Of a stretch of 28,433 nt of DNA, positions 2,169 to 27,137 are shown piece by piece (the first letter of the stretch is position 1; each line of letters opens with the position of its first letter). Source of the stretch: Candidatus Latescibacterota bacterium (GTDB lineage: Bacteria > Latescibacterota > UBA2968 > UBA8231); contig CBDETK010000004.1 in NCBI GenBank assembly GCA_965242865.1, forward strand, positions 1-28,433, in the 5' to 3' direction. Under the pieces are notes generated by a model. It was not told the DNA's origin. It worked only from the letters and a program-made list of their open reading frames with translations, and did no database searches. Made by a program: the position numbers and the translations under genes.

Positions 2169-2205
2169 GCATCTCTCACGGGGTGAGTTGGGAGTGGATT
2201 GAAAT
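2169..2205 (+). repeat. Solitary CRISPR-repeat-like unit 1
   Basis: GCATCTCTCACGGGGTGAGTTGGGAGTGGATTGAAAT: stem CTCTCA/TGGGAG plus 3' GTGGATTGAAAT; intergenic. Confidence 0.75.
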
Positions 2206-2267: not shown

Positions 2268-3263
2268 ATGGCCCAAAAAAAACGAAAGCAACATCGGTAT
2301 GACATAGGCGCGGGGGGGGCGGCGGATGGGGCGACCTTGCGTGCTCGTTGGAAGCTCGGCAGCATCACGGCGGCTATTCGTCAGGCGTTGGCGCGGTCGG
2401 TGGCGGACGACCCTCCGGTGGCGGATGTAGCGGCGCTGGTGGCGGACGTAGAGTCGGCCAAAGAGGTTTTGTGGCGCGCGGTGCCCCCCGTGGGGCATGG
2501 GCGCGAGGCCCTCCTGCTGGCAGACCATTGTCGTATTGCCGTCGCGGATCTGGTCGATTACAAACGTCGGCTCCAGGCTATTTCGAATTCGTATGCGAAG
2601 TTGGAGGCGGATCGCGACGGGTACAAGCGGTCGCTTGCGGAGTGCGCTTCGGAGCGCGATGGGATGCAGGAGACCGTGCTCACCCTCCGGGCGGAGCGCG
2701 ATGCGTTGCAGGAGGATGTGGCAACCCTTAGGGATCGGATACGCGAGATGGAGGAGGTGCATCATAATACGGTGGAAGCGCAAACGGCGTTGCGGCGGGA
2801 GGCGCTGGCGACTCTCGTTGAGGCGGGGTTGTGCGACCGTGATACGATGCCGCTGCAGGCGGGTGTCAACCAAGCCAGAGACCGGTTCCACAGGGTGCGC
2901 GAGGATGTCAAAGCGCTGGAGGCCCATATAGACGCCTTGAAAGCGCGGGAGAAAGAGCGCAACGACCACTTCGAAAAGTCCCAGCGGGAGGCGGTGCAGG
3001 CTCTCGTAGAGGCGGGGTTGTGCGATGAGTGGAAGGCTGTCGATACGCTGAGCGCCAAAATAGCCCAAGCGGTGGAAAATTATCAGTGGTCTGTTACGAA
3101 TTGGGGGCGTCTCCAGGACGACCGCGACCGTATCAAGCGACAGGCCGAACGGGACGTAGAAAGCGCCCGGGTGCGTTGGATGATGTGGACGTGTCTGTCC
3201 TTTGCGGCGGGCGCGTCGTTGGCGGTGCTGGCTCTGGTGGCGTTCGGGGGCTTTTGGCAGTAA
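2268..3263 (+). CDS. Coiled-coil protein with a C-terminal transmembrane helix
   Basis: GGGAGG RBS + ATG 2268. Long heptad-like E/R/L/A-rich region, internal repeat REA...LVEAGLCD x2, hydrophobic C-terminus (WMMWTCLSFAAGASLAVLALVAFGGFW). Confidence 0.8.
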   Translation: MAQKKRKQHRYDIGAGGAADGATLRARWKLGSITAAIRQALARSVADDPPVADVAALVADVESAKEVLWRAVPPVGHGREALLLADHCRIAVADLVDYKRRLQAISNSYAKLEADRDGYKRSLAECASERDGMQETVLTLRAERDALQEDVATLRDRIREMEEVHHNTVEAQTALRREALATLVEAGLCDRDTMPLQAGVNQARDRFHRVREDVKALEAHIDALKAREKERNDHFEKSQREAVQALVEAGLCDEWKAVDTLSAKIAQAVENYQWSVTNWGRLQDDRDRIKRQAERDVESARVRWMMWTCLSFAAGASLAVLALVAFGGFWQ

Positions 3264-4292: not shown

Positions 4293-4329
4293 GTATCTCC
4301 CGCGGGCTGAGTCGGGAGTGGATTGAAAC
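4293..4329 (+). repeat. Solitary CRISPR-repeat-like unit 2
   Basis: GTATCTCCCGCGGGCTGAGTCGGGAGTGGATTGAAAC (37 nt); stem CTCCCG/CGGGAG. Confidence 0.8.
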
Positions 4330-4331
4330 CG

Positions 4332-4787
4332 ATGAGTAAGCCTACGCGCGGTCGGTCCCGCAGCCCCGTGTCCCGCGGCGAGCATGATGACCAGATACGG
4401 GCGTTGTATGAACGTGGCTACACCCACGCTGAGATCGCGGAGCGGGTTTGTTCAAACCGTACGACGGTCAGCTATCGGATCAAGGCGTTGGAGCTTACGC
4501 GGCCGGCGGGACCTCCCCGTCGGCCGCGCATCATCACGAGGCGCGGGAAGCTGAAGTCTGGGGCCTACGACAAGGCCGCCTATGACCCACACAAACGCCT
4601 CGCGGCGGATATATTGGCTCCCTTGTGTGAGGTTGCGAAATACGAACCAGACAGCAACGAGGGACGTCTGGCGCGCACCCAACTGCGTTGGGCGATGGGT
4701 ACTATCGAGTTGAACATCATTGGAGCGTGCATTACAATACTGGATGTGGAGCGGCAAGTCGCTGAAATTTTAACGAAGGAGGAGTAG
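4332..4787 (+). CDS. Helix-turn-helix DNA-binding protein
   Basis: IRALYERGYTHAEIAERVCSNRTTVSYRIKAL is a typical HTH pattern. Confidence 0.8.
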   Translation: MSKPTRGRSRSPVSRGEHDDQIRALYERGYTHAEIAERVCSNRTTVSYRIKALELTRPAGPPRRPRIITRRGKLKSGAYDKAAYDPHKRLAADILAPLCEVAKYEPDSNEGRLARTQLRWAMGTIELNIIGACITILDVERQVAEILTKEE

Positions 4788-5511: not shown

Positions 5512-5584
5512 GTGTCTCCCGCGGGGTGAGTTGGGAGTGGATTGAGTAGTATTTCTCTCCAAATTTTGGAGAGTGGATTGAAAT
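5512..5584 (+). repeat. Two adjacent CRISPR-repeat-like units (3 and 4) of different types
   Basis: GTGTCTCCCGCGGGGTGAGTTGGGAGTGGATTGA (5512-5545) and ATTTCTCTCCAAATTTTGGAGAGTGGATTGAAAT (5551-5584; 8-bp stem CTCTCCAA/TTGGAGAG). Confidence 0.75.
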
Positions 5585-5641
5585 TGGAACAAGACGTGCT
5601 GGCGCGTGCCCTGCGGCGGCTATCGGATTGAACCCTCACCC

Positions 5642-5736: not shown

Positions 5737-8700
5737 CTAATCGACCACTTGGAACGTGAGCGGCATATAGATTGTTTCTGTGCCGTCCGACGCGATCAGC
5801 ACCGCCGGCCGGGGGTATAGGTCGGCGGTGCTTTGTGCGTTGGCCGACAACTGAAAGACGTTGCGCGCTAAGGTGACACTGCGGGCTATTTGCACCGGGC
5901 AGCCCGTCGTGTACGCAAAGCGTAGCGTGTAGGTGATCGTACGCCCCGCCACCGTGCTGGCATACGAGAAGTCCGCATTAGCGGTCTGTCGTTGCGTTCC
6001 GCGTGTCCCCTCATTGAACACCACAAAGTTGCGCGTCCCTTTCTTGATGGGATAGAAGGTCTGCGCGGGGATGCCCGAGGCGTTCGGTAGCTCATACGCC
6101 CACGTCAGGTTATTGGCGGCGGCCGTGGACGGCTGCACAAACGTCTTGAGGGTGCTTAGCTTGACGAAGCGGTTGGGGTCGCCGCTGGTGCTCTCATCGC
6201 TGACGACCATGCGGTCATCATCGTGCAGGGTCGTTAGCTCGGTGGTGACGTCATCGTGCAGGTCGAACGGGTCGGCGGTGGGTGTGCTACCCGTGCCAAT
6301 GAACGCCTTGAGCGTTGCCAGCGTAACATACCGGGTAGGGTCGCCGCTGGCCGACTCGTCGCTCACCACCATGCGGTCGTCGTTGTGTAAGGTGGTTAGT
6401 TGCGTCGTAACGTCGTCATGCAGGTCAAAGGCGTACCGATTATCAAGGGCCTGCAAGGTGATAAAGCGATTGGGCTGGTTGGCCGCCGACACGTCGGCCA
6501 CCACGAACTTGTCGAGCGGGTCTAAGCCCGAGCCGACCAACTGGGTGGGTACATCGATGTTGAGATGGAACCCCGGAACGTTCGCCCACTGACCTGTGTT
6601 GTTGACATACTGGAGCCTGCGGGACCTACTGCTATAGAAGGCATTGCCTTGTGTTCGAAAAAGCAAGTAACTCGCGAGAGAACCAACCGCCACATAGCGG
6701 TTGGGGTCACCTGATACGGACTCGTCACTAATAAGCATCCGATCCTCAGCATGTAAGGATGAGATAGCCGTGGTTACATCGTCATGCAAGTCAAACGAAC
6801 CGCCGCCACTGCTTAGGCCCGCTGTGAAGAACGTCTTGAGGGTGCTGAGGGTGACGTAGCGGTTCGGGTCGCCCGACGCCCCCTCGTCGCTAACCAACAT
6901 CCTATCGTCGTTATGCAGGGACGGAATGACCGTGGTAACGTCATCATGCAGGTCAAAATTCTTTAGCCCCGCCGTTATGAACGTCTTGAGGGTGCTGAGG
7001 GTGACGTAGCGGTTCGGGTCGCGGCTGGCCGACTCATCGCTTACAACCATGCGGTCGTCGTTGTGCAAGGTGGTTAGTTGCGTAGTAACGTCATCATGCA
7101 GGTCAAACGAGAAGAATAACTTGAGGGCGCCTAACGCGACATAGCGGTTCGGGTCGCCCACGAGCGACTCATCGCTAATCAACATCCTATCATCATTGTG
7201 CAGGGCCTGAATGACCGTGGTAACATCATCGTGCAAATCAAAATTGCCGCCGCCACTACTTAACCCCGCCGTGAAGAATGTCTTGAGGCTTGCCAACGTG
7301 ACATAGCGGTTCGGGTCGCCGCTTTCCGACTCATCGCTAATCAGCATCCGATCCTCATCGGCCAACGCCGCCGCCACCGTACTCACATCATCATGCAGGT
7401 CAAACGGGTCCGCCACAAACGTCTTGAGGGTTGCCAGCGTGACGTAGCGGTTCGGATCGCCACTAACTGATTCGTCGCTGATTAACATCCGGTCGCTGTT
7501 GTTCAGCGTTGTTAGTTGCGTAGTAACGTCATCATGCAGGTCAAACGCGAAGAACGGCTTGAGGCTTGCCAACGTGACATAGCGGTTCGGGTCGCCGCTT
7601 TCTGACTCATCGCTAATCAGCATCCGATCCTCATCGGCCAACGCCGCCGCGACCGTACTCACATCATCATGTAGGTCAAACGTCTCCACCGCCGGGACCG
7701 CCACATCCTCCCAACTATCTCCATCGTAGTATTCAAGATTGGACGGCGACGTGTTATCGTAGCGTACGTCATTCGCCGCCACGGGCAACTCAGTAACTGC
7801 CACATCCTCCCATTCGGCCATCGCCGTATAGCGTTCCAACTTGGACGGGCTAGTACGCGCATAGCGTATGTCGCCAGCCCGTGGGTCGCGCACGGGCACG
7901 TTCTGCCAAGCCGTGCCACTCCAATACTCAAGGGATGTTTCGCTGGAGGAGTCATAGCGCACATCGCCGCCCCCCGTGGTAACATCCACTTCAATAGGTA
8001 GGCTTATGCTCTCGTTGCCGCTGGTCGCTATCCACGTGAACGACACCACTTGCTCTGTCGAGGGAGCAGGGGCATTGATGGTAACAGCACCCGTCATTAA
8101 GTCCACGTCTAACCACGTAGGGAGCTCCATCGTGCTATATGCAATAGCGGCCATATCCACGGTGGAGACCGCCACGGGCAACACCGGCGAGAGCGGTGCT
8201 GTGACGGGCCGCCCCGCCTCAGCACGAAAACGCCGCGCGCCCGCCGTAGCCCATGTAAGCGTCGCGGCCGGGGCAACGGTCACATCGTCAATAGCAACAT
8301 AGATAGGCAAGCATATCGCCTCGTCGCCGCTCGTGGCGATCCATACAAACGACTCCGGCCCTTCGGGCGCATCCGCGATAGCCGTTACAATGCGAGTGGT
8401 AAGGTCCACACTGAGCCAGCTTGGAACATCGACCGCTGTATAGACGATAGACGCGCCGCTGGTCGTAGAGGATGCTTGAGGTAACGTGGGCGTTACCGGG
8501 TCTAACACACGGCTGCCCTCAACAATATCAATACGACGGGTGCCGCCCGCTTGGAAGGTGAGCTCGGCAGCAGGAACCGTGCCGGTTATAATTACGGGAG
8601 AAGTGGTAAGCCGTATTAGATTATCAGTAATAATATGGCCGCTAAGTAAAAAATTGAGGAGATTATATGAACTGTCTCTTCCATACCAACCGACTGAATC

Positions 8701-11700
8701 GGTTGCGGTCCCTATATTTGTTTCACTTGATTGTCTTACTGGTAATGCTCGAAGTTGTGAAACATCCAGCAGTTTACCTTCACCGGCACGATTTACTGCA
8801 ACAGGTGCGACCACCCATCCATCGGCTGGTATCGTTTTTGAACTTAGAGTTTCAAACGCATTTACCCCCGACGTTAGTTTCAAGTCAACTGAATACACTT
8901 CAACCGTAACTTGTCCATCCCCATAAAAACTACTTAGGCTTAATTTACCAGAACTACTATTACGATAAAAGGAAAAAGTCTGATCCCCGCCGTTCAAGTT
9001 AATGGTCGCATTATAACTAAACGCATATTCATTGTCTTGAGGATTAGTAGGACGACGAGCCTGTAATAATATGTTGGAATTTGCTGGTATGGTAATATCA
9101 GTATTTAGAATACCATCATAAGGAACCGAAAGAGAAACTCCTCCAATACGAGTGATTGCACTTCCCCCGCTTGTAGCGGGCAACGCCAATGTATGAATAC
9201 GACAAGCCGTTCCACTTATAATTTTCCCCTCATTATTAACTGAAAAACTACCTTCTATTCGTTGCCGGAAAGAACTAATAGCATCTGTTCTAAACCCATT
9301 CGCTCGCACTTCTGCGGCCCTTGCCCAACGTTGCGAACCTTTCTTACGTGCTGTTGGAGCAAACTGAATCCATAACCACCCGGTGGACGGGATGGTAAAC
9401 GACGACATGCCACTGCCCGAATACGTCCCTAACTCAGTAAGGGTAAAGTCTGGCGGCACACTGGTAGTTGCCGCAATAGACAGACTAATCGTTTGACAGA
9501 TCGCCTCTTCGCCGCTCTTAGCGATCCACACAAACGAAGCAAACGTGCTGACACTGGGCGCGTTGGCATTCGCCGTGACCTGCCGGGTAGTCGTATTGAC
9601 ACTCAGATACGAAGGAACGCCGCTGGTCTCGTAGGTGATCGTGCCGCCGCCGGTCTTGATGGCTTGCGGCAACGTGGGCGTCGTGGGGTTAAGCGTTTGG
9701 GTGCTGGGCGTAACCCCTATCATCGTGTCGCCGCCCGACGCCCACGTAAGCGTTGCTTGCGCTTCGGCGCCCAGCATAGCAATCTCAACGGCTATGACTT
9801 GGCTAATGGTCTCGTTGCCGCTGGTCGCCTGCCAGATGAACGACGCCGGCCCCGTCGGCGCTACATCCGTGGCGGTGACAGCCCGTGTGTTTACATCGAC
9901 GCTAAGCCATGTAGGGACGTTCAACGCCGCATACACAATCGCCGCGCTATCGGCTTGCATCGCTTCGGGGAGCACGGGAGCCACCGGGTCTAAGACATTG
10001 CTTTCCTCCGTGGCCCCAATACTAAACGGCTCGGTATTGCTCCACGTTAGCTTAGACACGACACCCGCGGTATCGGCGGGCGTCGTCACCTCCACCGTGC
10101 TCGCCGGCACGGAGCCGGTCACGAGCGTCCCCGTGGGCAGCCACCACGCGGCCCTGATGCGTATCTTCGTCTCAGCGGGTAGGCTGTCCAGAAGGATGTC
10201 GTCGCCCACGTCAACGCTCTCGCGCCGCCCTAAGCGCGTATAGGTCTCGACCGCGCCGGGCAACGGTGCCGCGGTAAGCGTCCCCCACTCCAACGAGACC
10301 TGCGGAAAGACGGCGTTGGTTATGTTAACCGTCACGCGGTCATGCAACAGGTCCTTCGTGGTGATCGTGGGGGGTGCGGTCGCCTGCTCGGGCAACGGCG
10401 TCGTATCGATCTCGCCTAACGCCGTCGAGGCACCAAACAACGTATCGGGATCCTCGCGCAGATAGGCTTGAAGCGTAAGCTCTTTCGTTACATTCGTCCT
10501 GACCACCCTAAACCGCTCGGCCGCGATCCCTTGCTGTGGGTCGGTCAAGGTGACATAATCCCCGGGGCGCACCGTGAGAAGCGCCAGGTTATCGCGGGGG
10601 CGTAAGACGTACGTGCTGCCCCTAAAGAGGCGCAGGTGGCGCAGGGCCAGCGCGGTAAGGCGTTGCGCGGTGTGTGCATTAGACACCAACGAGACATCGG
10701 GCAGCCGCTTTTTTAGGCGCACGTTGCCATCATCGGTCAGCGCATCGCTATTCGTCAATTGGATGTCGTAGGGCTGATAGTTCGCTTGGGCGGCCTGCTC
10801 GATCTTACAGGCAACCACGTTGATACGCTCCTCCACCGGGGGAGCGACATAGAACGGATTGCTCTGAACAATATCATCCGCGCTGAGCACCCGTGCGCCC
10901 GACGTGTAGGCGCGCCCCGGCTCGTAATAGACCTTGTCGCCATGCTCGACGACCGCGCCCTGCCACGCAAAGTCTAACTCCTCCTCCACCGCCCGCGGGT
11001 CATCACTATACTGCACAATCCCCGACACCGGGTACTGGATCGTGCGCGGCACCAACGCCACCGTGACCGTGCCACCAATCTGCTGAATAATCTTTTGGTG
11101 ATCCGCCGCCGAGATCGTCCACGAGGCATAGCCCGTGTGCCAGGTGGGGTCGGTCTGCCCCGACAGGTCCGCCCGCCGCAACGTACTCGTCGGACGGCCC
11201 TCGCCGTCTATGTCATCGGGATGGAGCCAGACCACCCCGCCATTCGCCAGCGTTATTTTTACTGAAACGCTATGCGTCCGCAGCCAATTCCCGATAGGTT
11301 GGGTCAGCGTGACGGTATTCGCGGTCTGCGTAGCCGCCTCCACGTTGACCCGGGCGGTATGCACCGCCCCCGTAGCACTTATCTCTATGTTCGTCAGCAG
11401 ATGGCCCGACGCATAAGTGCGTTGCGCGTCCGTGCCCGTGGGTGAAAAAGTGCGCTCACTCCCCAACTGCGACACGGCGCAAGAAACCGACAGCACGTCC
11501 GCAAACTCGACCGACCGCGCGCATTCGGCTACTGCCGACGTGAACGCGGTGCTATCCAACGACGCATCCTCATCGCCAAACACGCGCTTGCGGTAGTCGT
11601 AGCGGACCACCGCCGCATTTTCGGAAAACGTGGGCGTCGTCTGTCCGGGCCAAGTCGTCTTCAGACCGCGCACGAGAAAACGGATGTTCGGTACAGAATC

Positions 11701-12315
11701 CTCGTTCTGCCAATAACGAATAGTGCGGAACGATTGACCCTGTAGGATGCGCTCCGCCCGTGCGCTGGTCAGCTTGACATGCACCCAGCTCCAATCTTGC
11801 AAGCGATGGCTGCGTGACCAGCCGCCCTTAGCCCACAGGCTGGCCCCCTGATTGCCATCCGCCAGAAAATACTCGCGCAACTCAATCCCGCCATTGAAGT
11901 CCAGTATATCCGTTTCACAGGTCAGCCTATCGCCGGTCTCGCCCGTGGGCGGGTCATGGCGGGTGAGCACCGCCGGGCGGTCGTTGATGTAAAGCCCTTC
12001 AATCGCCTCCATCGCGCCGCGACCCAGCACGTAGGCCAAATGCAAGTCCACCGGGCTTTCTGGGTCTTGCCACGCAAAGACCAAGTGACCGGGAACGTTT
12101 GCCCGCCCATAGACCAAGCGCGGCGTCAATGGGCCACTACTAGGTAACTGTAATTCGCGCTGTACGCGCTCGTCGTGCGCGGGGTTGCGGTTCAGCAGAT
12201 AGCCTACCGCACCCAAGCCCAACGCCGCGGTGACGCCCCAGGGACCGGAAAGCTGCCACGCCGCCAGTTCACCTCCGACGCTCGTAGCCAGTTTGAGAAA
12301 ATTTCTATCGGCCAT
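5737..12315 (-). CDS. Tail tip / host-specificity (lambda J-like) protein with Ig-like and repeated fibre domains, 2192 aa
   Basis: N-terminal 'PRLVYGRANVPG...LGRGAMEAIEGLYIND', 'PNIRFLVRG', 'FSENAAVVRYDY' and 'VRPGDYVTLTD' motifs are typical of siphophage tail-tip proteins. Lies downstream of the tape measure and distal tail genes. Confidence 0.88.
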   Translation of the reverse strand: MADRNFLKLATSVGGELAAWQLSGPWGVTAALGLGAVGYLLNRNPAHDERVQRELQLPSSGPLTPRLVYGRANVPGHLVFAWQDPESPVDLHLAYVLGRGAMEAIEGLYINDRPAVLTRHDPPTGETGDRLTCETDILDFNGGIELREYFLADGNQGASLWAKGGWSRSHRLQDWSWVHVKLTSARAERILQGQSFRTIRYWQNEDSVPNIRFLVRGLKTTWPGQTTPTFSENAAVVRYDYRKRVFGDEDASLDSTAFTSAVAECARSVEFADVLSVSCAVSQLGSERTFSPTGTDAQRTYASGHLLTNIEISATGAVHTARVNVEAATQTANTVTLTQPIGNWLRTHSVSVKITLANGGVVWLHPDDIDGEGRPTSTLRRADLSGQTDPTWHTGYASWTISAADHQKIIQQIGGTVTVALVPRTIQYPVSGIVQYSDDPRAVEEELDFAWQGAVVEHGDKVYYEPGRAYTSGARVLSADDIVQSNPFYVAPPVEERINVVACKIEQAAQANYQPYDIQLTNSDALTDDGNVRLKKRLPDVSLVSNAHTAQRLTALALRHLRLFRGSTYVLRPRDNLALLTVRPGDYVTLTDPQQGIAAERFRVVRTNVTKELTLQAYLREDPDTLFGASTALGEIDTTPLPEQATAPPTITTKDLLHDRVTVNITNAVFPQVSLEWGTLTAAPLPGAVETYTRLGRRESVDVGDDILLDSLPAETKIRIRAAWWLPTGTLVTGSVPASTVEVTTPADTAGVVSKLTWSNTEPFSIGATEESNVLDPVAPVLPEAMQADSAAIVYAALNVPTWLSVDVNTRAVTATDVAPTGPASFIWQATSGNETISQVIAVEIAMLGAEAQATLTWASGGDTMIGVTPSTQTLNPTTPTLPQAIKTGGGTITYETSGVPSYLSVNTTTRQVTANANAPSVSTFASFVWIAKSGEEAICQTISLSIAATTSVPPDFTLTELGTYSGSGMSSFTIPSTGWLWIQFAPTARKKGSQRWARAAEVRANGFRTDAISSFRQRIEGSFSVNNEGKIISGTACRIHTLALPATSGGSAITRIGGVSLSVPYDGILNTDITIPANSNILLQARRPTNPQDNEYAFSYNATINLNGGDQTFSFYRNSSSGKLSLSSFYGDGQVTVEVYSVDLKLTSGVNAFETLSSKTIPADGWVVAPVAVNRAGEGKLLDVSQLRALPVRQSSETNIGTATDSVGWYGRDSSYNLLNFLLSGHIITDNLIRLTTSPVIITGTVPAAELTFQAGGTRRIDIVEGSRVLDPVTPTLPQASSTTSGASIVYTAVDVPSWLSVDLTTRIVTAIADAPEGPESFVWIATSGDEAICLPIYVAIDDVTVAPAATLTWATAGARRFRAEAGRPVTAPLSPVLPVAVSTVDMAAIAYSTMELPTWLDVDLMTGAVTINAPAPSTEQVVSFTWIATSGNESISLPIEVDVTTGGGDVRYDSSSETSLEYWSGTAWQNVPVRDPRAGDIRYARTSPSKLERYTAMAEWEDVAVTELPVAANDVRYDNTSPSNLEYYDGDSWEDVAVPAVETFDLHDDVSTVAAALADEDRMLISDESESGDPNRYVTLASLKPFFAFDLHDDVTTQLTTLNNSDRMLISDESVSGDPNRYVTLATLKTFVADPFDLHDDVSTVAAALADEDRMLISDESESGDPNRYVTLASLKTFFTAGLSSGGGNFDLHDDVTTVIQALHNDDRMLISDESLVGDPNRYVALGALKLFFSFDLHDDVTTQLTTLHNDDRMVVSDESASRDPNRYVTLSTLKTFITAGLKNFDLHDDVTTVIPSLHNDDRMLVSDEGASGDPNRYVTLSTLKTFFTAGLSSGGGSFDLHDDVTTAISSLHAEDRMLISDESVSGDPNRYVAVGSLASYLLFRTQGNAFYSSRSRRLQYVNNTGQWANVPGFHLNIDVPTQLVGSGLDPLDKFVVADVSAANQPNRFITLQALDNRYAFDLHDDVTTQLTTLHNDDRMVVSDESASGDPTRYVTLATLKAFIGTGSTPTADPFDLHDDVTTELTTLHDDDRMVVSDESTSGDPNRFVKLSTLKTFVQPSTAAANNLTWAYELPNASGIPAQTFYPIKKGTRNFVVFNEGTRGTQRQTANADFSYASTVAGRTITYTLRFAYTTGCPVQIARSVTLARNVFQLSANAQSTADLYPRPAVLIASDGTETIYMPLTFQVVD
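6135..7680 (-). repeat. Intragenic ~43-aa repeats FDLHDDV...DRM..SDES.SGDPNRYV.L..LK (9 copies + 1 degenerate)
   Basis: Counted directly in the translation; near-identical DNA blocks are visible. Confidence 0.92.
7980..10050 (-). repeat. Four ~100-aa Ig-like repeats in two pairs flanking an AT-rich insert
   Basis: LT[WF]...P.LP.A...I.Y....P.[WY]L.V...T..VT....AP....F.W.A.SG.E.I repeated at ~9480-10050 (x2) and ~7980-8565 (x2). Confidence 0.8.
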
Positions 12316-12336
12316 TTCTGTTTTTTTCTCTAAAAC

Positions 12337-12349
12337 CTTCGTATATTAG
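12337..12349 (+). promoter_or_regulatory. Putative promoter of the mini-array (CTTCGTATATTAG)
   Basis: TATATT -10-like hexamer in a motif shared with 18205-18217 and 18346-18358; about 17 nt upstream of the first repeat. Confidence 0.65.
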
Positions 12350-12364
12350 GGTAGAGCAAGCCCA

Positions 12365-12539
12365 GTTCTTCCGCGGGCTAAGGCGGAAGTGGATTGAAAC
12401 TGAGGTTACGGAGCCGTCGCTGGCGGTGGCTATCGGTCTCCCCTTGCTTTGGTGAGGGGAGTGGATTGAAACATCATACGATACAGCCCCTCGGGCGCTT
12501 GATCCGGTCTCCCCTTGCTTTGGTGAGGGGAGTGGATTG
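12365..12539 (+). CRISPR. Phage-borne CRISPR mini-array: 3 repeats, 2 spacers, no cas genes in window
   Basis: R1 12365-12400 (GTTCTTCCGCGGGCTAAGGCGGAAGTGGATTGAAAC); spacer 35 nt; R2 12436-12472 (GTCTCCCCTTGCTTTGGTGAGGGGAGTGGATTGAAAC); spacer 34 nt; R3 12507-12539 is identical to the first 33 nt of R2. Confidence 0.9.
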
Positions 12540-12540
12540 C

Positions 12541-12576
12541 CGCCCGTCAACGCTTTTGGTTGGCGGGCGTTTTTTT
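12541..12576 (+). terminator. Rho-independent terminator closing the mini-array
   Basis: CGCCCGTCAAC/GTTGGCGGGCG stem (one G-U pair) followed by a T7 tract. Confidence 0.85.
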
Positions 12577-13075
12577 ATGCCCGCGCCAGCGGCCAGTCAA
12601 ATCGTTTTTCGCTCACCTCGTACATAAAATCCAATCCAATATCGGGGTCGCCCCCGCGCTCCTGCTCGCGCTGCCGCTCCGGTGTCCACACCGCATCCGG
12701 TTCCAACAAATTAAACTTGCGCTTGGAGACTTCCAACAACCACTCGCCGGCCTTATCGACGGTGCTCTGTCCCGCCGTCCCCGTGAAGCGATAGCCGGTG
12801 TCAGCCCATGCGCCGCCATCCGTCCGCGAAAGCAGATAAACCGACACGGTAGCCGGCCCCAAGTCTTCCGGTAGGGTCTGCCGTTGGGCGTCCGAGAGGG
12901 CGATAGCCACCGCCAAGGACGGCTCCGTACCCGCCTCCAGCGTGTGCTGCGGGAAACGGACGTCGAGCAGCCGGCCCCCCCCGCGATACACCTCGCTCTC
13001 AAACGTAATGTTTTGGGGGAACGTCGCCAAGCGTAGGGATGTTCCGATCTTCAAGAGAATAGCCGCGAATTGCAT
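12575..13075 (-). CDS. Minor tail / baseplate hub-like protein (166 aa)
   Basis: Lies between the distal tail and tail-tip genes. 'ITFESEVYRGGG' and C-terminal 'WT.E.Q......D.GLDF......F.W' pattern resembles siphophage hub N-terminal proteins. Confidence 0.7.
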   Translation of the reverse strand: MQFAAILLKIGTSLRLATFPQNITFESEVYRGGGRLLDVRFPQHTLEAGTEPSLAVAIALSDAQRQTLPEDLGPATVSVYLLSRTDGGAWADTGYRFTGTAGQSTVDKAGEWLLEVSKRKFNLLEPDAVWTPERQREQERGGDPDIGLDFMYEVSEKRFDWPLARA

Positions 13076-13077
13076 GA

Positions 13078-13668
13078 TCAGACCGCCTCCTCAAAGGGGA
13101 TGACCCATGGCCCCCACCGGGTCGCGGTGCGCGGTAGGTCTAACGCCCTCGTATCCAAGCGCACGTCCATGGTCGTCGCCGGGGTGATCCCATCGCCCAC
13201 TTTTCCGACAAACACCGGCACCGGGTTCACTTGCGTCGCCGCGGGTTGCGCCCCAGATGCTTGTAACAAGCGGTCGCCCGCCGAGAAGAACTGGCCGTCT
13301 GCCAACGCAACAGCACGGGAGAGGGTTAGACGCCCGCTCTGAGCATCTATCGCACTAATGGTGACAGACGGCACAGGGTTTTCAATCGTCCACAGACCCG
13401 CCAACGGAAGCTCCACCGTCAGGTCACCGCCCCGCGTCTTACGCAGTAGCGCCGACAACTGGCTGGCCAACTGGTTCGCCTCCGATTCCTGCTGATGGGC
13501 AAAGCTCATCCATGTCACCTCGCCCCGCCACGCCCCCGGCGCATAGTAGGCAAAAGACTGTTGACCCGTGTATTCAGAGCGATGCGATTGCAGGCCGGGT
13601 TCCCACGGCAACAACGACACCGCCGTGATGCGGTTCGCCAACGCTTCGGGGATTTGTATATCGGCCAT
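13078..13668 (-). CDS. Distal tail protein-like (196 aa)
   Basis: Directly after the tape measure gene. 'SEYTGQQ......GAWRGEVT' and C-terminal 'IPFEEAV' pattern. Confidence 0.7.
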   Translation of the reverse strand: MADIQIPEALANRITAVSLLPWEPGLQSHRSEYTGQQSFAYYAPGAWRGEVTWMSFAHQQESEANQLASQLSALLRKTRGGDLTVELPLAGLWTIENPVPSVTISAIDAQSGRLTLSRAVALADGQFFSAGDRLLQASGAQPAATQVNPVPVFVGKVGDGITPATTMDVRLDTRALDLPRTATRWGPWVIPFEEAV

Positions 13669-16145
13669 TAGCGCCTCGTGTCGCGGGCTAACGAATCAGA
13701 AATATCGATCATGTTCGGCAATATCTTTTGGTTAAACTCACGTATCAACCCCTCCCCATCCCCGAAGCCTTCTATATGGAACGTGGGTTGGAAGTTTATT
13801 GTGGGCTTCCCTGCCGCCGCTTCCCGTATAAGCTCTTCGGCCAAGCCCGGCTGCACCGACCCGATCCCCGTTGTGGGCGCACCTAATGCCGGCAGACCGC
13901 GCAACTGATTAAGGAGATCGAGGGAACGATCCGCCGCCGACGTCTCAAAGAGGAACGGCGTCGTCCGCGGGTTGAAGATACGCGCCATCAGCGGCTCAAT
14001 AATCTTTAGGCGGATGACCAACAACGCCATCTGGCGAAGCATCTGGCGCATCGCCTCCACCACCGAACCCGGCCCTATGATAGCACTGGCTATCCCCTCA
14101 AACGCCCCCGTAAGGGTGCTACGCACCCGGGCACCCGCCTCGGTCATACGCGCTAACTGTTCATTCGTCGCTTGCAGTGGGCCAGTCAAAAGCCCTAAGC
14201 GCAAGAGCGGGGCAATGTCGGGTCCGGTGAACGCCTCCGCACTCACCCGCTGGCTCAGGCGCACCGCCCGCGCCATGAGGCGCGTACTCTTATCCACCTC
14301 CTCGCCCGTCTTACCAATCGTACCCGATAACAAGCCCCAGGCCCGACGCAGATCCTCCAGCGTCGCCTGCCACGTCAGACTCAACACATTATTGACGCGC
14401 TCGGACTCGGCTTCGGTCACCCCAAAATAGTCCAGCGTCAGGTCGCGGGTGCTTCGAAAAAATTGGGCGATCTGAGCCACATTCGCTTCCGCCTGTTTGC
14501 CGGTAACTCGTAATCCCGTTTCTAATTGCCCGGTAAACTCGTCAATCACCGTACTCAAACTCTCCCCGCGCAACCCCGCCGCAATCGCATCCACCAACGC
14601 GTTCCCCAACGAGTAGAACGAGCCGACAATAAGCGTCACCGCCGCATGGATGCTGTTGACTATGAAACTGGGTATCGTAGCAATAGCCGCCACCACATTA
14701 GCCACAAACCGAAGACCCAAGTTACGACCCAGTTCGCCCCACGTGACGTTTTGCTCCCGCAAGATACGCGACAGATTGAGGAACGCATCGATCAAAAGAA
14801 TGACACCCTCAATAATAGCACCCACGAGCAGAGCACGAAAAGCAGCTTTTGCGGCGATACGCACCAGACCTAACGCCCGCGTCAAGAGGGACAACTGACG
14901 ACGCATGGCGACCAAGCCGCGACGCACCCGCAACACCGCCGCCGCACCAAACGCCAACAGCAACGCACGGCCCGTCGCCGTGATCACACCCCGGAAGCGA
15001 TCCAGATTGTCCGTCAATTGGTTGAAGAAGCCCGCAATGGACGAAAGGAAGTTGGTGAGCTCGGTGGTGACGCCGAACATCCTATCGACCGCCTGTACAA
15101 AGCCAAAGGCGGCCGACGCGGCTAAGCGCAGTTGCCCTATAAGCGTAGCATTGAGTAGGTCCGCCATCCGTTGGGCGGCCCCCGTGCCACCACGAATAGC
15201 CGTCGTCAAATCCTCCACCGAACGGACGTTGCGAATGAGTATCTCGGCAACGGATGCGTTTTCTCTCCCAAAGATATTGAAGATTTCGGCGGAATCGATC
15301 CCCGACCGCCGCAGGTTCTCCAACACGGGTATCAAGCCCAACGACGCAACACTCACGTCATCCAACGAGAGGCCCACCGACGCGAGCGACTGCGCCGCCG
15401 CGCCCGACGGGGCCGCCAGCGACGCCAAGAACCCGCGGAACCCGCGACCGGCGCGGGTGGCGAAAATACCGGCGTTACCTAAAGCACCAATCGCCGCCTC
15501 CGTGGTTTCAACATCGATACCAAATTGCCGAGCGATTGGCCCCACGTAGCTAAGGGCTTGAGTAAGTTCCTCAAAGTTGGTGTTGGCGCTATTCGTGGTT
15601 GTTACGAGTGTGTCCGTTATGCGCTCGGCATCGGCCACCGACAGACCAAACTGATTGATTATGTTGGTGAGTTGATTGCCTACCTCGGCGGTGGTTGCGC
15701 CGCTGGCTGCCGCAAGGTTCAATGTAGCCGGGAGGAGTGAAAATTGCTCGTTGACCGTGTTGCCCGCCCGGGCCAACTCAACCATCGCTTGGGCGGCCTC
15801 TGCAGCCGAAAAACGGGTATTTCTTCCTAAATCACGGGCCAGTTGGTCCAAACGCTGAAAGTCATTGCCGGTGGCATTCGTAATGCCCCGGACTAACGCC
15901 ATACTCTGCTCGTACTCAGCCAGTTGGCGGATGACGCCGCCCAAGCTGGAGGCCGCGCCGAAGGCAGCTAACGCCGCCGCCGCCCGCCGCGCCACCGAGT
16001 TGAAGCCCGAGAGTTCATTCCGTAGGGAACGCACTCTGCGCTGGTGACGGCGTAAGGCCACTTCGGCCGCACGGGTGCTGCGTAACAACTCTCTGGTTCT
16101 ACCAGAGAAGTTGACGAACAAAGTACCGAGCCTCACGCTTGCCAT
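13668..16145 (-). CDS. Tail tape measure protein (TP901-family core)
   Basis: 'YEQSMALVRGITNAT...ARDLGRNTRFSAAEAAQAMVELARAG...LNLAAASG...ANTNFEELTQALSYVGP' is the characteristic core. Probable start is ATG 16145. Confidence 0.95.
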   Translation of the reverse strand: MASVRLGTLFVNFSGRTRELLRSTRAAEVALRRHQRRVRSLRNELSGFNSVARRAAAALAAFGAASSLGGVIRQLAEYEQSMALVRGITNATGNDFQRLDQLARDLGRNTRFSAAEAAQAMVELARAGNTVNEQFSLLPATLNLAAASGATTAEVGNQLTNIINQFGLSVADAERITDTLVTTTNSANTNFEELTQALSYVGPIARQFGIDVETTEAAIGALGNAGIFATRAGRGFRGFLASLAAPSGAAAQSLASVGLSLDDVSVASLGLIPVLENLRRSGIDSAEIFNIFGRENASVAEILIRNVRSVEDLTTAIRGGTGAAQRMADLLNATLIGQLRLAASAAFGFVQAVDRMFGVTTELTNFLSSIAGFFNQLTDNLDRFRGVITATGRALLLAFGAAAVLRVRRGLVAMRRQLSLLTRALGLVRIAAKAAFRALLVGAIIEGVILLIDAFLNLSRILREQNVTWGELGRNLGLRFVANVVAAIATIPSFIVNSIHAAVTLIVGSFYSLGNALVDAIAAGLRGESLSTVIDEFTGQLETGLRVTGKQAEANVAQIAQFFRSTRDLTLDYFGVTEAESERVNNVLSLTWQATLEDLRRAWGLLSGTIGKTGEEVDKSTRLMARAVRLSQRVSAEAFTGPDIAPLLRLGLLTGPLQATNEQLARMTEAGARVRSTLTGAFEGIASAIIGPGSVVEAMRQMLRQMALLVIRLKIIEPLMARIFNPRTTPFLFETSAADRSLDLLNQLRGLPALGAPTTGIGSVQPGLAEELIREAAAGKPTINFQPTFHIEGFGDGEGLIREFNQKILPNMIDISDSLARDTRR

Positions 16146-16173
16146 TTGACACTCCCCCAAAAAGGGCTATACT
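16146..16173 (+). promoter_or_regulatory. Sigma70-like promoter for HNH cassette 1
   Basis: TTGACA (16146-16151), 16-bp spacer, TATACT (16168-16173). Confidence 0.7.
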
Positions 16174-18204: not shown

Positions 18205-18358
18205 CTAATATACGAAGAAACCACGCAAAACGCACAAAAAAAATCAAAGCATCTCGTTGGCCATGATAATCAGGGCCAGCATCACCGCACAAAATAGAAC
18301 GGTTCCCGTTTCCATACGTAGGCTCGCTTTTTTTATTCCTAATTCCTTCGTATATTAC
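18205..18358. promoter_or_regulatory. Divergent promoter pair with the CTTCGTATATTA motif
   Basis: - strand copy at 18205-18217 and + strand copy at 18346-18358, each preceded by a T-tract. Confidence 0.65.
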
Positions 18359-26014: not shown

Positions 26015-26581
26015 CTACAACGCGGCGTGAAGGGGACGCAAGGGCCCCAACAGCCGATCTAACGCACGAAAATCATTCGGCAGGCCCCCGCCGTTGTATA
26101 GCTGCCGCACCAGCAAGACCAACGCCTGCGCCAGCACCGTATCTTTGGGACGACGACCCAGCGTCAACCCGAGGGTCACATTCAGACGCCAGCGCAGATC
26201 CCGAGCATGGGCCGGCCACCCGGCCGGCGGCGCGTTCACGACAACAACATCCGTCGTCGGCGTCACCGTCGTCTCCACATCACCCCAATCATCCGTTTCA
26301 ATCCACTCTCCCTCCGAAGAAGGAGAGAAATACGCGATGCTCTGAAGACTCTTGAACCCTCGCGCCTCAAACACGAGCGCATTCATAGCGCCCATGGGCG
26401 GGTTCGTCGTAAGAACACTCGCCCTATCCACCAGCGGGTAGTCTATGCTTGCCTCGACCCACCCCACCGCCGACGCCAACTGATCCAACAGAAGCGTATC
26501 GTGGTAGGTCTCGTCCACCGCTAAACGCAATTCTAAGCGCAAGCGATCTAACGAGCATATATCGGTAGGCTGAGCGACCAT
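26015..26581 (-). CDS. Head-tail connector (HK97 gp6 / SPP1 gp15-like)
   Basis: 'SLDRLRLELRL......DTLL....SA..WVE' and 'QALVLLVRQLY' motifs. Confidence 0.88.
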   Translation of the reverse strand: MVAQPTDICSLDRLRLELRLAVDETYHDTLLLDQLASAVGWVEASIDYPLVDRASVLTTNPPMGAMNALVFEARGFKSLQSIAYFSPSSEGEWIETDDWGDVETTVTPTTDVVVVNAPPAGWPAHARDLRWRLNVTLGLTLGRRPKDTVLAQALVLLVRQLYNGGGLPNDFRALDRLLGPLRPLHAAL

Positions 26582-26587
26582 AGAGCG

Positions 26588-27001
26588 TTAGGAGCGCGTA
26601 GGCTTAGGCTTGGGACGCTTAGCGTCGCGGGTCTCCACCTCGACGCCCTGCCGACGCGCAAGCTCGACCAATTTTCGTGACGTATCTCGATGCGCCAACA
26701 GACCCACGTCATGGATTCGCAACAAATTAACCAGCATCTCTTCCTCCGTTTCTTGGCGCACCGCCAGACCGCGCGACACCATATCGTCCACCTCAGAGGC
26801 CGGGACCAGCACTAACTGACCGCGCTTATACGGACAGCCCCCCGGGGCCACCCAATGGGTACGAAGGCGCACCCGCTCCAGCGGAATATCCGCCTTGCGC
26901 TTCTCACCCTCCAAGCGGTGCTCCTCCAACTGGGCGATCTCGGCTTGGCGGCGACGCGCTTGCTCGCGAGCCGCCGCCTCCTTCATCGTCATCGTAGGCA
27001 T
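26588..27001 (-). CDS. Hypothetical capsid-adjacent protein (137 aa)
   Basis: GAGGAGAGGGG RBS; 'YKRGQLV.VP......MVSRGLA' motif is seen in small post-capsid phage proteins. Confidence 0.7.
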   Translation of the reverse strand: MPTMTMKEAAAREQARRRQAEIAQLEEHRLEGEKRKADIPLERVRLRTHWVAPGGCPYKRGQLVLVPASEVDDMVSRGLAVRQETEEEMLVNLLRIHDVGLLAHRDTSRKLVELARRQGVEVETRDAKRPKPKPTRS

Positions 27002-27016: not shown

Positions 27017-27137
27017 GTTTCAATCGTTTCAATCCACTCCCGACTTAGCCCTCGGGAGAACGGGGCTTACGCTAAGGCTACTGCGCCTTGATCTTCAACT
27101 TGTTTCAATCCACTCCCGACTTAGCCCTCGGGAGAAC
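27017..27137 (-). CRISPR. Repeat-spacer-repeat unit after the capsid gene, plus a 9-nt repeat remnant
   Basis: Two identical 36-mers GTTCTCCCGAGGGCTAAGTCGGGAGTGGATTGAAAC (- strand; 27102-27137 and 27026-27061) separated by 40 nt; extra GATTGAAAC at 27017-27025. Confidence 0.8.

What the first reader, a model, noticed from the sequence alone, without database searches (positions are those of the whole stretch)
12337..12576. Self-contained antisense CRISPR mini-array cassette inside the tail operon
Seen: promoter motif, repeat, 35-nt spacer, repeat, 34-nt spacer, truncated repeat and terminator, all within the 259-bp gap between two tail genes on the opposite strand. The first repeat differs in sequence from the other two but has the same fold and 3' end. 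Known: virus-borne mini-arrays use host Cas proteins in inter-virus conflict. Inference: an expressed guide cassette; spacer 2 has no evident match in this window.
Basis: partly seen in the sequence, partly recalled or inferred. Interest (0 to 1): 0.85.

Follow-up and report, generated by a model that had tools for sequence, protein, structure and literature searches.

The report
Phage mini-CRISPR array using host Cas
A phage carries a tiny two-spacer CRISPR array that copies the repeat of its host's own type I-C CRISPR system, probably to turn that system against rival phages, and the same phage holds seven more lone copies of the repeat.

Summary
On the + strand, 12365-12539 reads repeat, 35-nt spacer, repeat, 34-nt spacer, truncated repeat. 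A strong intrinsic terminator follows (12541-12576). All of it lies in the 259-bp gap between two minus-strand tail genes.

The window is one whole contig of a 6-Mb assembly. That assembly's chromosome has a complete type I-C cas operon next to a 41-repeat array.

Spacer 1 matches the neighbouring tail gene. It matches 30/35 in this phage and 31/35 and 30/35 in two sister phage contigs, with synonymous differences. All three copies lack a usable PAM side. No target was found for spacer 2.

The sister contigs have this slot empty, or filled by a lipoprotein-like gene with the same terminator.

My best reading is a known kind of element: a virus-borne mini-array for conflict between viruses. Expression is untested.

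Repeat 1 is a phage-specific hairpin. It belongs to a family of ten hairpin-plus-handle units in this 28-kb window, nine of them intergenic and one inside a gene. This suggests an added decoy role like that of RNA anti-CRISPRs, or an RNA-processing role.

The parts
12316..12349 (+). T-rich tract and -10-like TATATT (12342-12347, inside the TATATTAG motif): the putative promoter of the cassette
   Evidence: Read. TATATTAG occurs twice in this contig and twice in sister contig C11, against 26 times in the 5.6-Mb chromosome. Each phage copy lies in a gap between ORFs; three read toward a mini-array, a small gene or a lipoprotein-like gene, and what follows the fourth (18212, minus strand) was not examined beyond a 5' UTR. 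The consensus scan did not call it a promoter.
12365..12400 (+). Repeat 1: phage-type hairpin (7-bp stem) plus the handle TGGATTGAAAC
   Evidence: Bases 12325-12400 are 93% identical to C11 5401-5326, where the same module is the 5' UTR of a small gene.
12401..12435 (+). Spacer 1 (35 nt)
   Evidence: Matches the minus strand of ORF 12575..13075: 30/35 in this contig, 31/35 in C11 and 30/35 in C2.
12436..12472 (+). Repeat 2: host-type type I-C repeat, 36 of 37 identical to the chromosomal repeat
   Evidence: It folds into a 10-bp hairpin.
12473..12506 (+). Spacer 2 (34 nt)
   Evidence: No match longer than 14 nt in the 6-Mb assembly. A 20-nt core has 0 hits in viral contigs. Its 8 hits in metagenome and genome contigs do not extend beyond 21-25 of 34.
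12507..12539 (+). Repeat 3: host-type repeat cut off after GGATTG. The hairpin and the presumed cut site remain, but the last 4 nt of the handle are missing.
12541..12576 (+). Intrinsic terminator (stem 12541-12569, then T7)
   Evidence: The same terminator closes the lipoprotein-like gene at the same slot in C11.
12901..12935 (-). The phage's own copy of the spacer-1 target, inside ORF 12575..13075. It has mismatches at spacer positions 1, 3, 6, 19 and 20, and GGA on the PAM side.
   Evidence: The changes at positions 19 and 20 are synonymous in the ORF's frame (my reading of the frame).
12575..13075 (-). 166-aa tail-region gene downstream of the tape measure gene, with no family hit. It is the gene that spacer 1 derives from.
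   Evidence: Homologues occur only in C4, C11 and C2.
5737..12315 (-). 2192-aa ORF that follows the gap, presumably a tail fibre or host-recognition protein (inferred from position only)
   Evidence: No significant family hit.
2169..2205 (+). Solitary repeat unit a, in the gap before gene 2268..3263
4293..4329 (+). Solitary repeat unit b. It ends 2 nt before the ATG of gene 4332..4787.
5512..5584 (+). Tandem units c1 and c2. A hairpin with a degenerate handle is followed directly by a second hairpin with a handle, and no spacer lies between them.
26295..26333 (-). Solitary repeat unit g (9-bp stem, UUCG loop), inside ORF 26015..26581
27026..27137 (-). Units h (27026-27061) and i (27102-27137), between the major head gene and gene 26588..27001. 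Unit i is a tandem duplication that includes 20 nt of the head gene's end.

Best explanation
This is a phage-borne type I-C mini-CRISPR array with no cas genes found on it, carried as a strand-inverted accessory cassette (a 'moron') between two tail genes.

**Construction.** It is made of three pieces:
1. a phage promoter-plus-solitary-repeat module (R1);
2. two repeat-spacer units of the host's type (spacer 1, R2, spacer 2, R3);
3. the terminator that belongs to this slot.

**Proposed working (inferred).**
- The + strand is transcribed from the TATATT motif to the terminator.
- The host's Cas5c cuts at the 3' base of each hairpin.
- This gives two crRNAs, each with an 11-nt 5' handle, a 35- or 34-nt spacer and a 3' hairpin.
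- R3 supplies the 3' hairpin of the second crRNA. Because it lacks the end of the handle, no third guide is made from the terminator.
- The host's Cascade (Cas8c, Cas7, Cas5c) and Cas3 then destroy incoming DNA that carries a matching target. For spacer 1 this would be a related phage's copy of the adjacent tail gene.
- The carrier phage itself is spared by mismatches at the PAM-near end and by the lack of a PAM.

**Shown:** the anatomy, the cognate host system, the origin of spacer 1 and the accessory nature of the cassette.

**Inferred:** transcription, processing, loading and exclusion of rival phages.
For: **Cognate host system.**
- Contig C13 carries cas3, cas5c, cas8c, cas7/csd2, cas4, cas1c and cas2. 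All were found with NCBIfam models above the cut-offs of the matching type I-C or general Cas models.
- Next to them lie 41 repeats and 40 spacers of 34-37 nt.
- The host repeat differs from R2 at 1 of 37 positions.
- The mini-array spacers, 35 and 34 nt, fall within the host's range.

**Origin of spacer 1.** It matches the coding strand of the neighbouring gene at 30/35 (self), 31/35 (C11) and 30/35 (C2). Positions 19 and 20 differ only synonymously. The spacer therefore came from a diverged homologue of that gene.

**Fit to the known kind.**
- They report that the carrier's own copy is mutated.
- They report that phage mini-arrays lack leaders (PMC6858448, passages).
- A 2024 review defines mini-arrays by one or two spacers, host-type repeats and spacers against related viruses (PMC11656645, passages).

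**Accessory cassette.**
- In C2 the two tail genes are 14 nt apart.
- In C11 the slot holds a 116-aa lipoprotein-like ORF behind a TATATTAG motif and in front of the same terminator.
- All three forms occur in contigs of public runs X1-X3. These runs may be the source samples.

**Own transcription signals.**
- The terminator works on the + strand only.
- The TATATTAG motif recurs in the phage contigs.

**Shared history of host and phage group.** Host I-C spacer 5 ends in 15-16 nt that are the reverse complement of the phage-type unit end, including its T variant.
Against: - There is no expression or processing data.
- No target with a full match was found for either spacer. All three spacer-1 matches have mismatches at positions 1 and 3 and GGA where a type I-C PAM would sit (TTC, recalled). 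None of the three phages in hand would be cut, and the spacer does not tell self from the two sisters.
- The putative promoter has no -35 element and was not called by the scan.
- R2 and R3 carry T at the first handle base, where the host has C. Arrays with the C variant occur in at least 7 of the 75 other family genomes, each with 17 or more hits. The T variant is found in only 6 of those 75 genomes, once in each.
- The same phage carries seven other repeat mimics. If these inhibit Cascade, they would work against a guide function, unless the two are expressed at different times.
- No integrase was found on the small contigs, so a lysogenic stage is not shown. Only the tyrosine integrase family was searched.
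Confidence: 0.5

Rival explanations
1. The cassette is a decoy, like an RNA anti-CRISPR (Racr). It would be one member of a battery of repeat mimics spread through the genome. Their transcripts would bind host Cas5c and Cascade subunits and so dilute or block the host's own crRNAs. On this reading the two spacers are leftovers of how the cassette arose and guide nothing.
For: **Ten units in the window.**
- Ten hairpin-plus-TGGATTG units lie in this 28-kb window; seven of them are outside the cassette.
- 11 of 20 GGATTG sites have a stem of 6 bp or more closing 1 nt upstream, against 5.2% of random positions (binomial P about 8e-10).
- The eleventh site, at 11021 on the minus strand, looks like chance.

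**Conserved stem.** Stems co-vary while the stem base and the handle stay fixed. On 9 units, 54 of 54 cells pair, 3 of 6 pairs show compensatory changes, and 0 of 500 shuffles reach the score.

**Spacer-less tandem units.** Tandem units without a spacer mimic an empty crRNA. They occur at 5512-5584 in the window and at two or three sites in C2.

**Fast turnover.** Unit content differs between genomes that are 92-98% identical. Examples are the C2 insertion with a 28-nt duplication and the duplication of unit i. Such turnover fits an arms-race function.

**Precedent.** A type I-C Racr that sits on the same mRNA as a protein gene has been validated experimentally (PMC10651486, passages).
Against: - The cassette has true spacers of the host's length and a host-type repeat. 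The other units do not need these.
- R3 is trimmed exactly so that two guides and no third can form.
- No known anti-CRISPR protein was recognised nearby. Two neighbouring ORFs had no significant match to solved structures, and there were no Pfam or PHROG hits. This is only a weak test.
- The class-A hairpins match no cellular array in the 168 genomes of the phylum.
Confidence: 0.25
2. The cassette is a passive by-product. A piece of a host array was captured by recombination between a phage solitary repeat and a host repeat at the shared handle. It is carried without selected function.
For: - The array is a hybrid. Its first repeat is phage-type and the next two are host-type, joined at the shared GGATTGAAAC.
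- No host-like leader is present. The host leader was read and bears no resemblance to the sequence before R1.
- R3 is joined abruptly to the slot's terminator.
- A host spacer against this phage family is what a host array would be expected to hold.
- The cassette is present in only one of three sister genomes.
- Medvedeva et al. suggest recombination with host arrays as the source of leaderless phage mini-arrays (PMC6858448, passages).
Against: - The cassette sits in an expression slot with its own promoter-like motif and terminator. In a sister phage that slot holds a protein gene.
- Both host-type repeats carry the phage-wide T variant. This needs a donor array that has not been seen, or later conversion.
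- Origin by capture does not exclude function.
Confidence: 0.15
3. The cassette is a regulatory anti-CRISPR array ('Cracr'). Its guides would pair partly with a promoter of the host's cas genes or of another defence locus, and would make Cascade repress that promoter.
For: - Two-spacer type I-C arrays of this kind are reported in phages (bioRxiv 10.1101/2024.10.29.618823; abstract, section 7 and passages read).
- No target was found for spacer 2.
- The distal repeat is degenerate, as in many regulatory mini-arrays (bioRxiv 10.1101/2023.03.03.530964, passage).
Against: - I searched the whole assembly for TTC followed by 8 or more matching PAM-near bases. I used both spacers and 12 sequences that follow repeat units. 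Spacer 1 had four 8-base hits, none near the cas loci, and spacer 2 had none. About 3 such hits per guide are expected by chance.
- The host's only repeat-like element inside the cas operon, between cas4 and cas1, has no spacer to copy.
- Spacer 1 is plainly derived from a phage gene.
Confidence: 0.05

Closest known systems
Virus-borne mini-CRISPR arrays (Saccharolobus viruses SPV1 and SPV2; phage mini-arrays surveyed by Faure et al. 2019, a paper cited within the papers I read but not read itself)
   Same: - One or two spacers.
- No cas genes found on the virus.
- Repeats of the host's type.
- A spacer derived from a gene next to the array in related viruses.
- The carrier's own copy is mutated.
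- Variable content between close relatives at one genomic position.
- No host-like leader, as reported for phage mini-arrays (PMC6858448, passages; PMC11656645, passages).
   Different: - The first repeat is not a host repeat but a phage-specific hairpin that shares only the stem base and the handle.
- Both host-type repeats differ from the host at the first handle base.
- No perfectly matching rival virus is in hand.
- The host here is a bacterium with a type I-C system, whereas the experimental proof comes from an archaeal system.
RNA anti-CRISPRs (Racr), including RacrIC1 (Camara-Wilpert et al. 2023, PMC10651486)
   Same: - Repeat mimics in viral intergenic regions that keep the repeat's fold.
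- A type I-C example sits on an mRNA together with a protein gene.
- Cas5 is the processing enzyme in type I-C, as stated in that paper's legend.
   Different: - The cassette itself has spacers, so it is not a solitary unit.
- The window holds ten units in 28 kb, some in tandem and one inside a coding sequence.
- I found no statement about several units per genome in that paper's main text (term search). Its supplements were not open to me.
Viral Cracr arrays and the host's CreR/CreA regulatory mini-arrays (bioRxiv 10.1101/2024.10.29.618823; bioRxiv 10.1101/2023.03.03.530964)
   Same: A short array of repeat-like units with one or two spacers and a degenerate distal repeat, carried by a phage and matched to a type I system.
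   Different: - The spacers are full length (34-35 nt).
- Neither spacer has a PAM-plus-seed match to the host's cas locus.
- Spacer 1 matches a phage gene.
Phage-encoded complete CRISPR-Cas systems (as summarised in PMC11656645)
   Same: A phage uses CRISPR guides for its own ends.
   Different: No Cas protein family was found in any window ORF scanned. The array depends on the host's Cas proteins.

Membership tests
Virus-borne mini-CRISPR array | One or two spacers flanked by direct repeats on a viral genome | tested here: met
   There are two spacers and three repeats. Phage structural genes surround them.
Virus-borne mini-CRISPR array | Repeats identical or nearly identical to those of the host's CRISPR array | tested here: met
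   R2 matches the 41-repeat array on the co-assembled chromosome at 36/37 and R3 at 32/33. R1 shares only the stem base and the handle.
Virus-borne mini-CRISPR array | No cas genes on the virus, and a complete cognate cas operon in the host | tested here: met
   The host operon is complete, from cas3 to cas2. No Cas family was found in the window ORFs scanned. The phage genome is probably incomplete, because the contig ends inside ORFs.
Virus-borne mini-CRISPR array | A spacer matches a related virus but not the carrier | tested here: inconclusive
   Spacer 1 matches C11 at 31/35, C2 at 30/35 and the carrier at 30/35. All three have GGA on the PAM side and mismatches at positions 1 and 3. No target was found for spacer 2.
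Virus-borne mini-CRISPR array | Transcribed and processed into crRNAs that load into host effector complexes | not testable with these tools
   No RNA run holds the locus. Contigs cannot show RNA ends.
Type I-C CRISPR repeat | A hairpin followed by a single-stranded handle ending in ATTGAAAC, linked to cas5c, cas8c and cas7 (the handle length and the cut site are recalled) | tested here: met
   The hairpins of R1, R2 and the host repeat end 11 nt before the 3' end. The host array adjoins type I-C cas genes. Rfam CRISPR-DR9 scored only 16.8 and 15.9 bits against a threshold of 45.
RNA anti-CRISPR (Racr) | A solitary repeat unit without an adjacent partial repeat or spacer | tested here: not met
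   The cassette has two spacers and three repeats. Units a, b and g elsewhere in the window are solitary, and unit g lies inside an ORF; c1/c2 and h/i stand in pairs.
RNA anti-CRISPR (Racr) | Binds Cas proteins and lowers interference | not testable with these tools
   This needs bench work.
Cracr or CreR-like regulatory array | A spacer with a PAM and about 9 or more PAM-near matches to a cas or toxin promoter | tested here: not met
   The search of the whole assembly gave only chance-level 8-9-base hits, none near the cas loci.

The most novel reading that the evidence does not exclude
The mini-array is the visible tip of a distributed system. This phage group has seeded its early and late operons, and even one coding sequence, with at least ten mimics of the type I-C repeat.

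**What the mimics keep and what varies.**
- They keep only what Cas5c should need: the CU...AG stem base and the handle UGGAUUGAAAC.
- The rest of the stem co-varies freely.
- All carry a phage-specific base at the cut site.

**What the phage would gain.** It would recruit the host's CRISPR RNase onto its own messengers. This could flood Cas5c and Cascade with spacer-less or guide-less RNAs during lytic growth. It could also cut and stabilise its polycistronic mRNAs.

**Role of the cassette.** The separately promoted cassette would use the same machinery as a weapon against rival phages.
Probability: 0.3. Interest if true: 0.75.

Novelty: new member of a known kind. Interest (0 to 1): 0.6.

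Why it matters
Conflict between viruses through mini-arrays has been tested only with two archaeal viruses. Here a bacterial case comes with all the pieces in one assembly:
- the cognate type I-C operon and array;
- three sister phages whose only difference at this slot is empty, lipoprotein-like gene or mini-array;
- a host spacer taken from one of the phage's repeat mimics.

This makes the guide, decoy and by-product readings directly testable.

The ten-unit family of repeat mimics has co-varying stems and a fixed handle. If it is functional, it would show how far a phage can go in copying one host RNA signal. It would also show which nucleotides the host's Cas5c really reads.

Tried and rejected
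**RNA family searches.**
- Rfam at gathering thresholds gave 0 hits in the window.
- At E<=10 on 12300-12600 it gave only sub-threshold hits. CRISPR-DR9 scored 16.8 and 15.9 bits against 45, and the rest were generic hairpin-plus-terminator look-alikes.

**Search for relatives.**
- Four pattern scans of viral contigs all gave 0: the R2 core, class-A unit, spacer-2 core and spacer-1 core.
- blastn against deposited phages found no match for 12575-16160.
- For the cassette it gave only E>=0.7.
- The 166-aa target protein found no relative in viral contigs.
- It found none in metagenome contigs.
- It found none in the other 75 of 76 genomes of the order.
- In the 5.8-billion-protein collection it found only its own cluster.

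**Spacer 2.** The 20-nt core hit 6 metagenome and 2 genome contigs. Identity over the full 34 nt was only 21-25, so I read these hits as chance.

**RNA evidence.** No RNA holder is listed. Only contigs of unknown library kind could be laid.

**Regulatory-array idea.** The seed-plus-PAM search gave chance-level hits only.

**Anti-CRISPR proteins.** Two ORFs beside units b and c gave no significant hit to solved structures. The other ORFs were not tested in this way.

**Lysogeny.** The tyrosine integrase family is found only on the chromosome (3 hits) and on none of contigs C1-C12. Serine recombinases were not searched.

**Folding.** The global fold of the 222-nt transcript pairs R2 with R3 and is not informative.

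**Alignment problems.**
- MAFFT put the stems of R2, the host repeat, C2_317 and the G031 unit out of register. The covariation count therefore used 9 of 13 units, and the structure tested was derived from those same sequences.
- One search used a wrong host coordinate and was redone.
- In one search the C2 row was printed one base out of register. Its 30/35 comes from the coordinates and from reading the printed row by eye.

**Terminators.** The simple scan found no terminator after unit c2.

**Tool problems.**
- One paper search failed on a badly formed term and was not repeated.
- Supplements of the Racr and Cracr papers were not open. Their tables may list genomes with several units.
Full report
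**What is there.** On the + strand the gap 12316-12574 lies between two minus-strand ORFs: 5737..12315 (2192 aa) and 12575..13075 (166 aa). The gap holds, in order:
- a T-rich tract with TATATT at 12342-12347;
- R1, 12365-12400;
- a 35-nt spacer;
- R2, 12436-12472;
- a 34-nt spacer;
- R3, 12507-12539, cut off after GGATTG;
- a hairpin of 11 pairs followed by seven T, 12541-12576.

R2 and R3 are identical. R1 has another stem and loop but the same last 12 nt. Folded alone, each unit forms a hairpin that ends 11 nt before its 3' end. The surrounding genes are those of a tailed phage:
- tape measure, 13668..16160;
- tail completion;
- endolysin-like;
- major head;
- a DNA methyltransferase on the other arm.

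The promoter is not a consensus one, and spacer 1 has a match inside the window.

**The host system.** The window is the whole of contig C4 in a 6.0-Mb assembly of 13 contigs.
- The 5.6-Mb contig C13 carries cas3, cas5c, cas8c, cas7/csd2, cas4, cas1c and cas2.
- These genes lie directly upstream of an array of 41 repeats and 40 spacers of 34-37 nt.
- The host repeat equals R2 at 36 of 37 positions. The one difference is the first base of the handle, C in the host and T in the phage.
- Arrays ending in the C variant occur in several other genomes of the host's family.
- The T variant occurs 17 times in this assembly: 16 times on the three phage contigs and once inside a host spacer. It occurs once each in 6 of 75 other family genomes. 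Of those six, one is a terminal array repeat and one is a hairpin-plus-handle unit between two genes.

**The spacers.** Spacer 1 matches the coding strand of the adjacent 166-aa gene.

| Copy | Position | Match | Mismatched spacer positions |
|---|---|---|---|
| own (C4) | 12901-12935 | 30/35 | 1, 3, 6, 19, 20 |
| C11 | 846-880 (minus strand) | 31/35 | 1, 3, 6, 20 |
| C2 | 10207-10241 (minus strand) | 30/35 | 1, 3, 6, 7, 20 |

- The C2 row was read by eye.
- In the gene's frame, positions 19 and 20 are synonymous changes. The spacer therefore comes from a diverged homologue of this gene.
- All three copies have GGA where a PAM would sit. The type I-C PAM is TTC (recalled). None of the three would be a good target, and the spacer cannot tell the carrier from its two sisters.
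- Host spacers that match other small contigs of the assembly show the same picture. Their mismatches crowd at the PAM-near end and their flanks are not TTC. That is expected of elements that survive beside the host.
- No target was found for spacer 2 in the assembly, in viral contigs, in metagenome contigs or in one genome per species.
- None of the 96 host spacers from the two arrays matches C4, C2 or C11 over more than 16 nt.

**An accessory slot.** Contigs C2 and C11 are 92-98% identical to the window over long stretches.
- In C2 the two tail genes are separated by 14 nt.
- In C11 the same slot holds a TATATTAG motif, a 116-aa ORF with a signal- or lipoprotein-like start, and the same terminator.
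- The window's promoter-plus-R1 module (12325-12400) is 93% identical to C11 5401-5326. There it forms the 5' UTR of a 68-aa gene whose window copy lacks the unit.

The cassette is thus a mosaic: a phage promoter and solitary repeat, two host-type repeat-spacer units joined at the shared handle, and the slot's own terminator. Contigs of three public runs hold all three slot forms. Those runs may be the source samples, and their library kind is not on record.

**A family of repeat mimics.** The handle motif led to more units:
- a, 2169-2205;
- b, 4293-4329;
- c1 and c2, 5512-5584;
- g, 26295-26333;
- h and i, 27026-27137.

With R1-R3 this makes ten units.
- Eleven of 20 GGATTG sites have a stem of at least 6 bp closing one base upstream, against 5.2% of random positions. 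One of the eleven looks like chance.
- On nine units in the same register, all 54 stem cells pair and three of six pairs show changes on both sides. No shuffle of 500 reaches the covariation score, and sliding the partner drops pairing to 50-60%. The structure tested was derived from these same sequences.
- The two pairs at the stem base, the fifth pair and the handle do not vary.
- Nine units lie in the 7.6% of the window that is intergenic. All units outside the cassette lie on the same strand as the genes around them.
- Unit g lies in frame inside a 188-aa ORF with a weak head-tail adaptor hit.
- Units c1 and c2 stand head to tail without a spacer.
- Content differs between the sister genomes. 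C2 has a double unit inserted between two coupled genes, with a 28-nt duplication that keeps the ribosome-binding site. Unit i is a 76-nt tandem duplication.
- The class-A unit end is found in no other of the 168 genomes of the phylum.
- Host I-C spacer 5 ends in the reverse complement of a phage-type unit end, T variant included. The host lineage has therefore met such phages.

**How it most likely works.** I put the guide reading first, at 0.5. The parts in its favour are:
- true spacers of the host's length;
- host-type hairpins;
- a distal repeat trimmed so that exactly two guides can form;
- a terminator of its own;
- a phage-gene spacer next to its source gene.

These are what a mini-array needs, and they match what is described for such arrays (PMC6858448 and PMC11656645, passages).

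The decoy reading (0.25) rests on the ten-unit family and on the validated type I-C Racr (PMC10651486, passages). The two readings need not exclude each other if the cassette and the operon-embedded units are expressed at different times, but no lysogeny gene was found. Passive capture (0.15) explains the mosaic but not the expression slot. The regulatory-array reading (0.05) failed its test in this host.

**Comparison and novelty.** As a mini-array this is a new member of a known kind. Three things lie beyond what I found in the papers read:
- the phage-type first repeat;
- the phage-wide T at the cut site;
- the density, tandem forms and coding-sequence copy of the repeat mimics.

I could not see the supplements of the Racr and Cracr papers, which may list similar genomes. 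My only check was a term search of the Racr main text.

**Verdict.** Interest 0.6.

Noticed in passing
window 2169-2205, 4293-4329, 5512-5584 (+); 26295-26333, 27026-27061, 27102-27137 (-): Seven further hairpin-plus-TGGATTGAAAY units lie outside the cassette. All are on the same strand as the genes around them. Their stems co-vary, and their stem base and handle are fixed.
   Followed up: yes
window 26295-26333 (-), inside ORF 26015..26581: The unit with the best hairpin (9 bp, UUCG loop) lies in frame inside a 188-aa ORF with a weak head-tail adaptor hit. It encodes ..YFSPSSEGEWIET... The same unit is present in sister contig C11.
   Followed up: partly
window 5585-5633 (+): After unit c2 come 40 nt and then GGATTGAAC, with no hairpin before it. 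This could be a remnant of a second mini-array. The 40 nt match nothing else in the assembly except the C2 copy.
   Followed up: partly
L042 (G000:C11) 1-520: At the same slot between the tail genes, the sister phage carries a TATATTAG motif, a 116-aa ORF with a signal- or lipoprotein-like N-terminus (no family hit) and the same terminator. This may be another superinfection-exclusion cargo.
   Followed up: partly
L041 (G000:C2) 2801-2952 and 180-320: A double repeat unit is inserted between two translationally coupled genes, with a 28-nt duplication that preserves the downstream ribosome-binding site. At 180-320 there is a cluster of two full units and one partial unit.
   Followed up: partly
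window 12342-12349 (+) and 18205-18212 (-); C11 51 (+) and 5384 (-): TATATTAG behind a T-rich tract recurs four times in the phage contigs, each time in a gap between ORFs. It is about 15 times denser there than on the chromosome. It may be a phage promoter element.
   Followed up: partly
L020 about 6871-6926 (G000:C13 3527370-3527425, - strand): Inside the host's type I-C operon, between cas4 and cas1, lie a copy of the leader's end, a degenerate repeat and a half repeat. Cas1 appears to start at the TTG inside the second GGATTGAAAC.
   Followed up: partly
G000:C13 about 3525492-3526526 region; spacer 5 of the type I-C array at about 3525492-3525526: The last 15-16 nt of host spacer 5 are the reverse complement of a phage-type unit end, T variant included. 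The other 19 nt match nothing in the assembly.
   Followed up: partly
G000:C13 4796534-4800877 (array 2) and 4777194-4781740 (cas10/csm1, csm3, csm4): A type III-A system has a 57-repeat array in which 12 of 56 spacers match the organism's own chromosome perfectly and 6 more nearly. The targets are scattered. Of 12 perfect matches checked, 5 are antisense to the longest ORF at the target, so those guides could pair with its mRNA.
   Followed up: partly
L044 (G031:C54) 7169-7193 (-): In another genome of the host's genus, a 6-bp hairpin plus TGGATTGAAAC sits between the stop codon of a small ORF ending ..RYRQRTGQ and the ATG of the next gene. This locus is chromosomal, not phage.
   Followed up: no
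G000 contigs C9 and C12: Each of these two 22-kb contigs holds its matches to host spacers twice, about 10.4-10.5 kb apart, so each looks like a dimer of a small element. Host I-C spacers 36-38 match them with mismatches at the PAM-near end.
   Followed up: no
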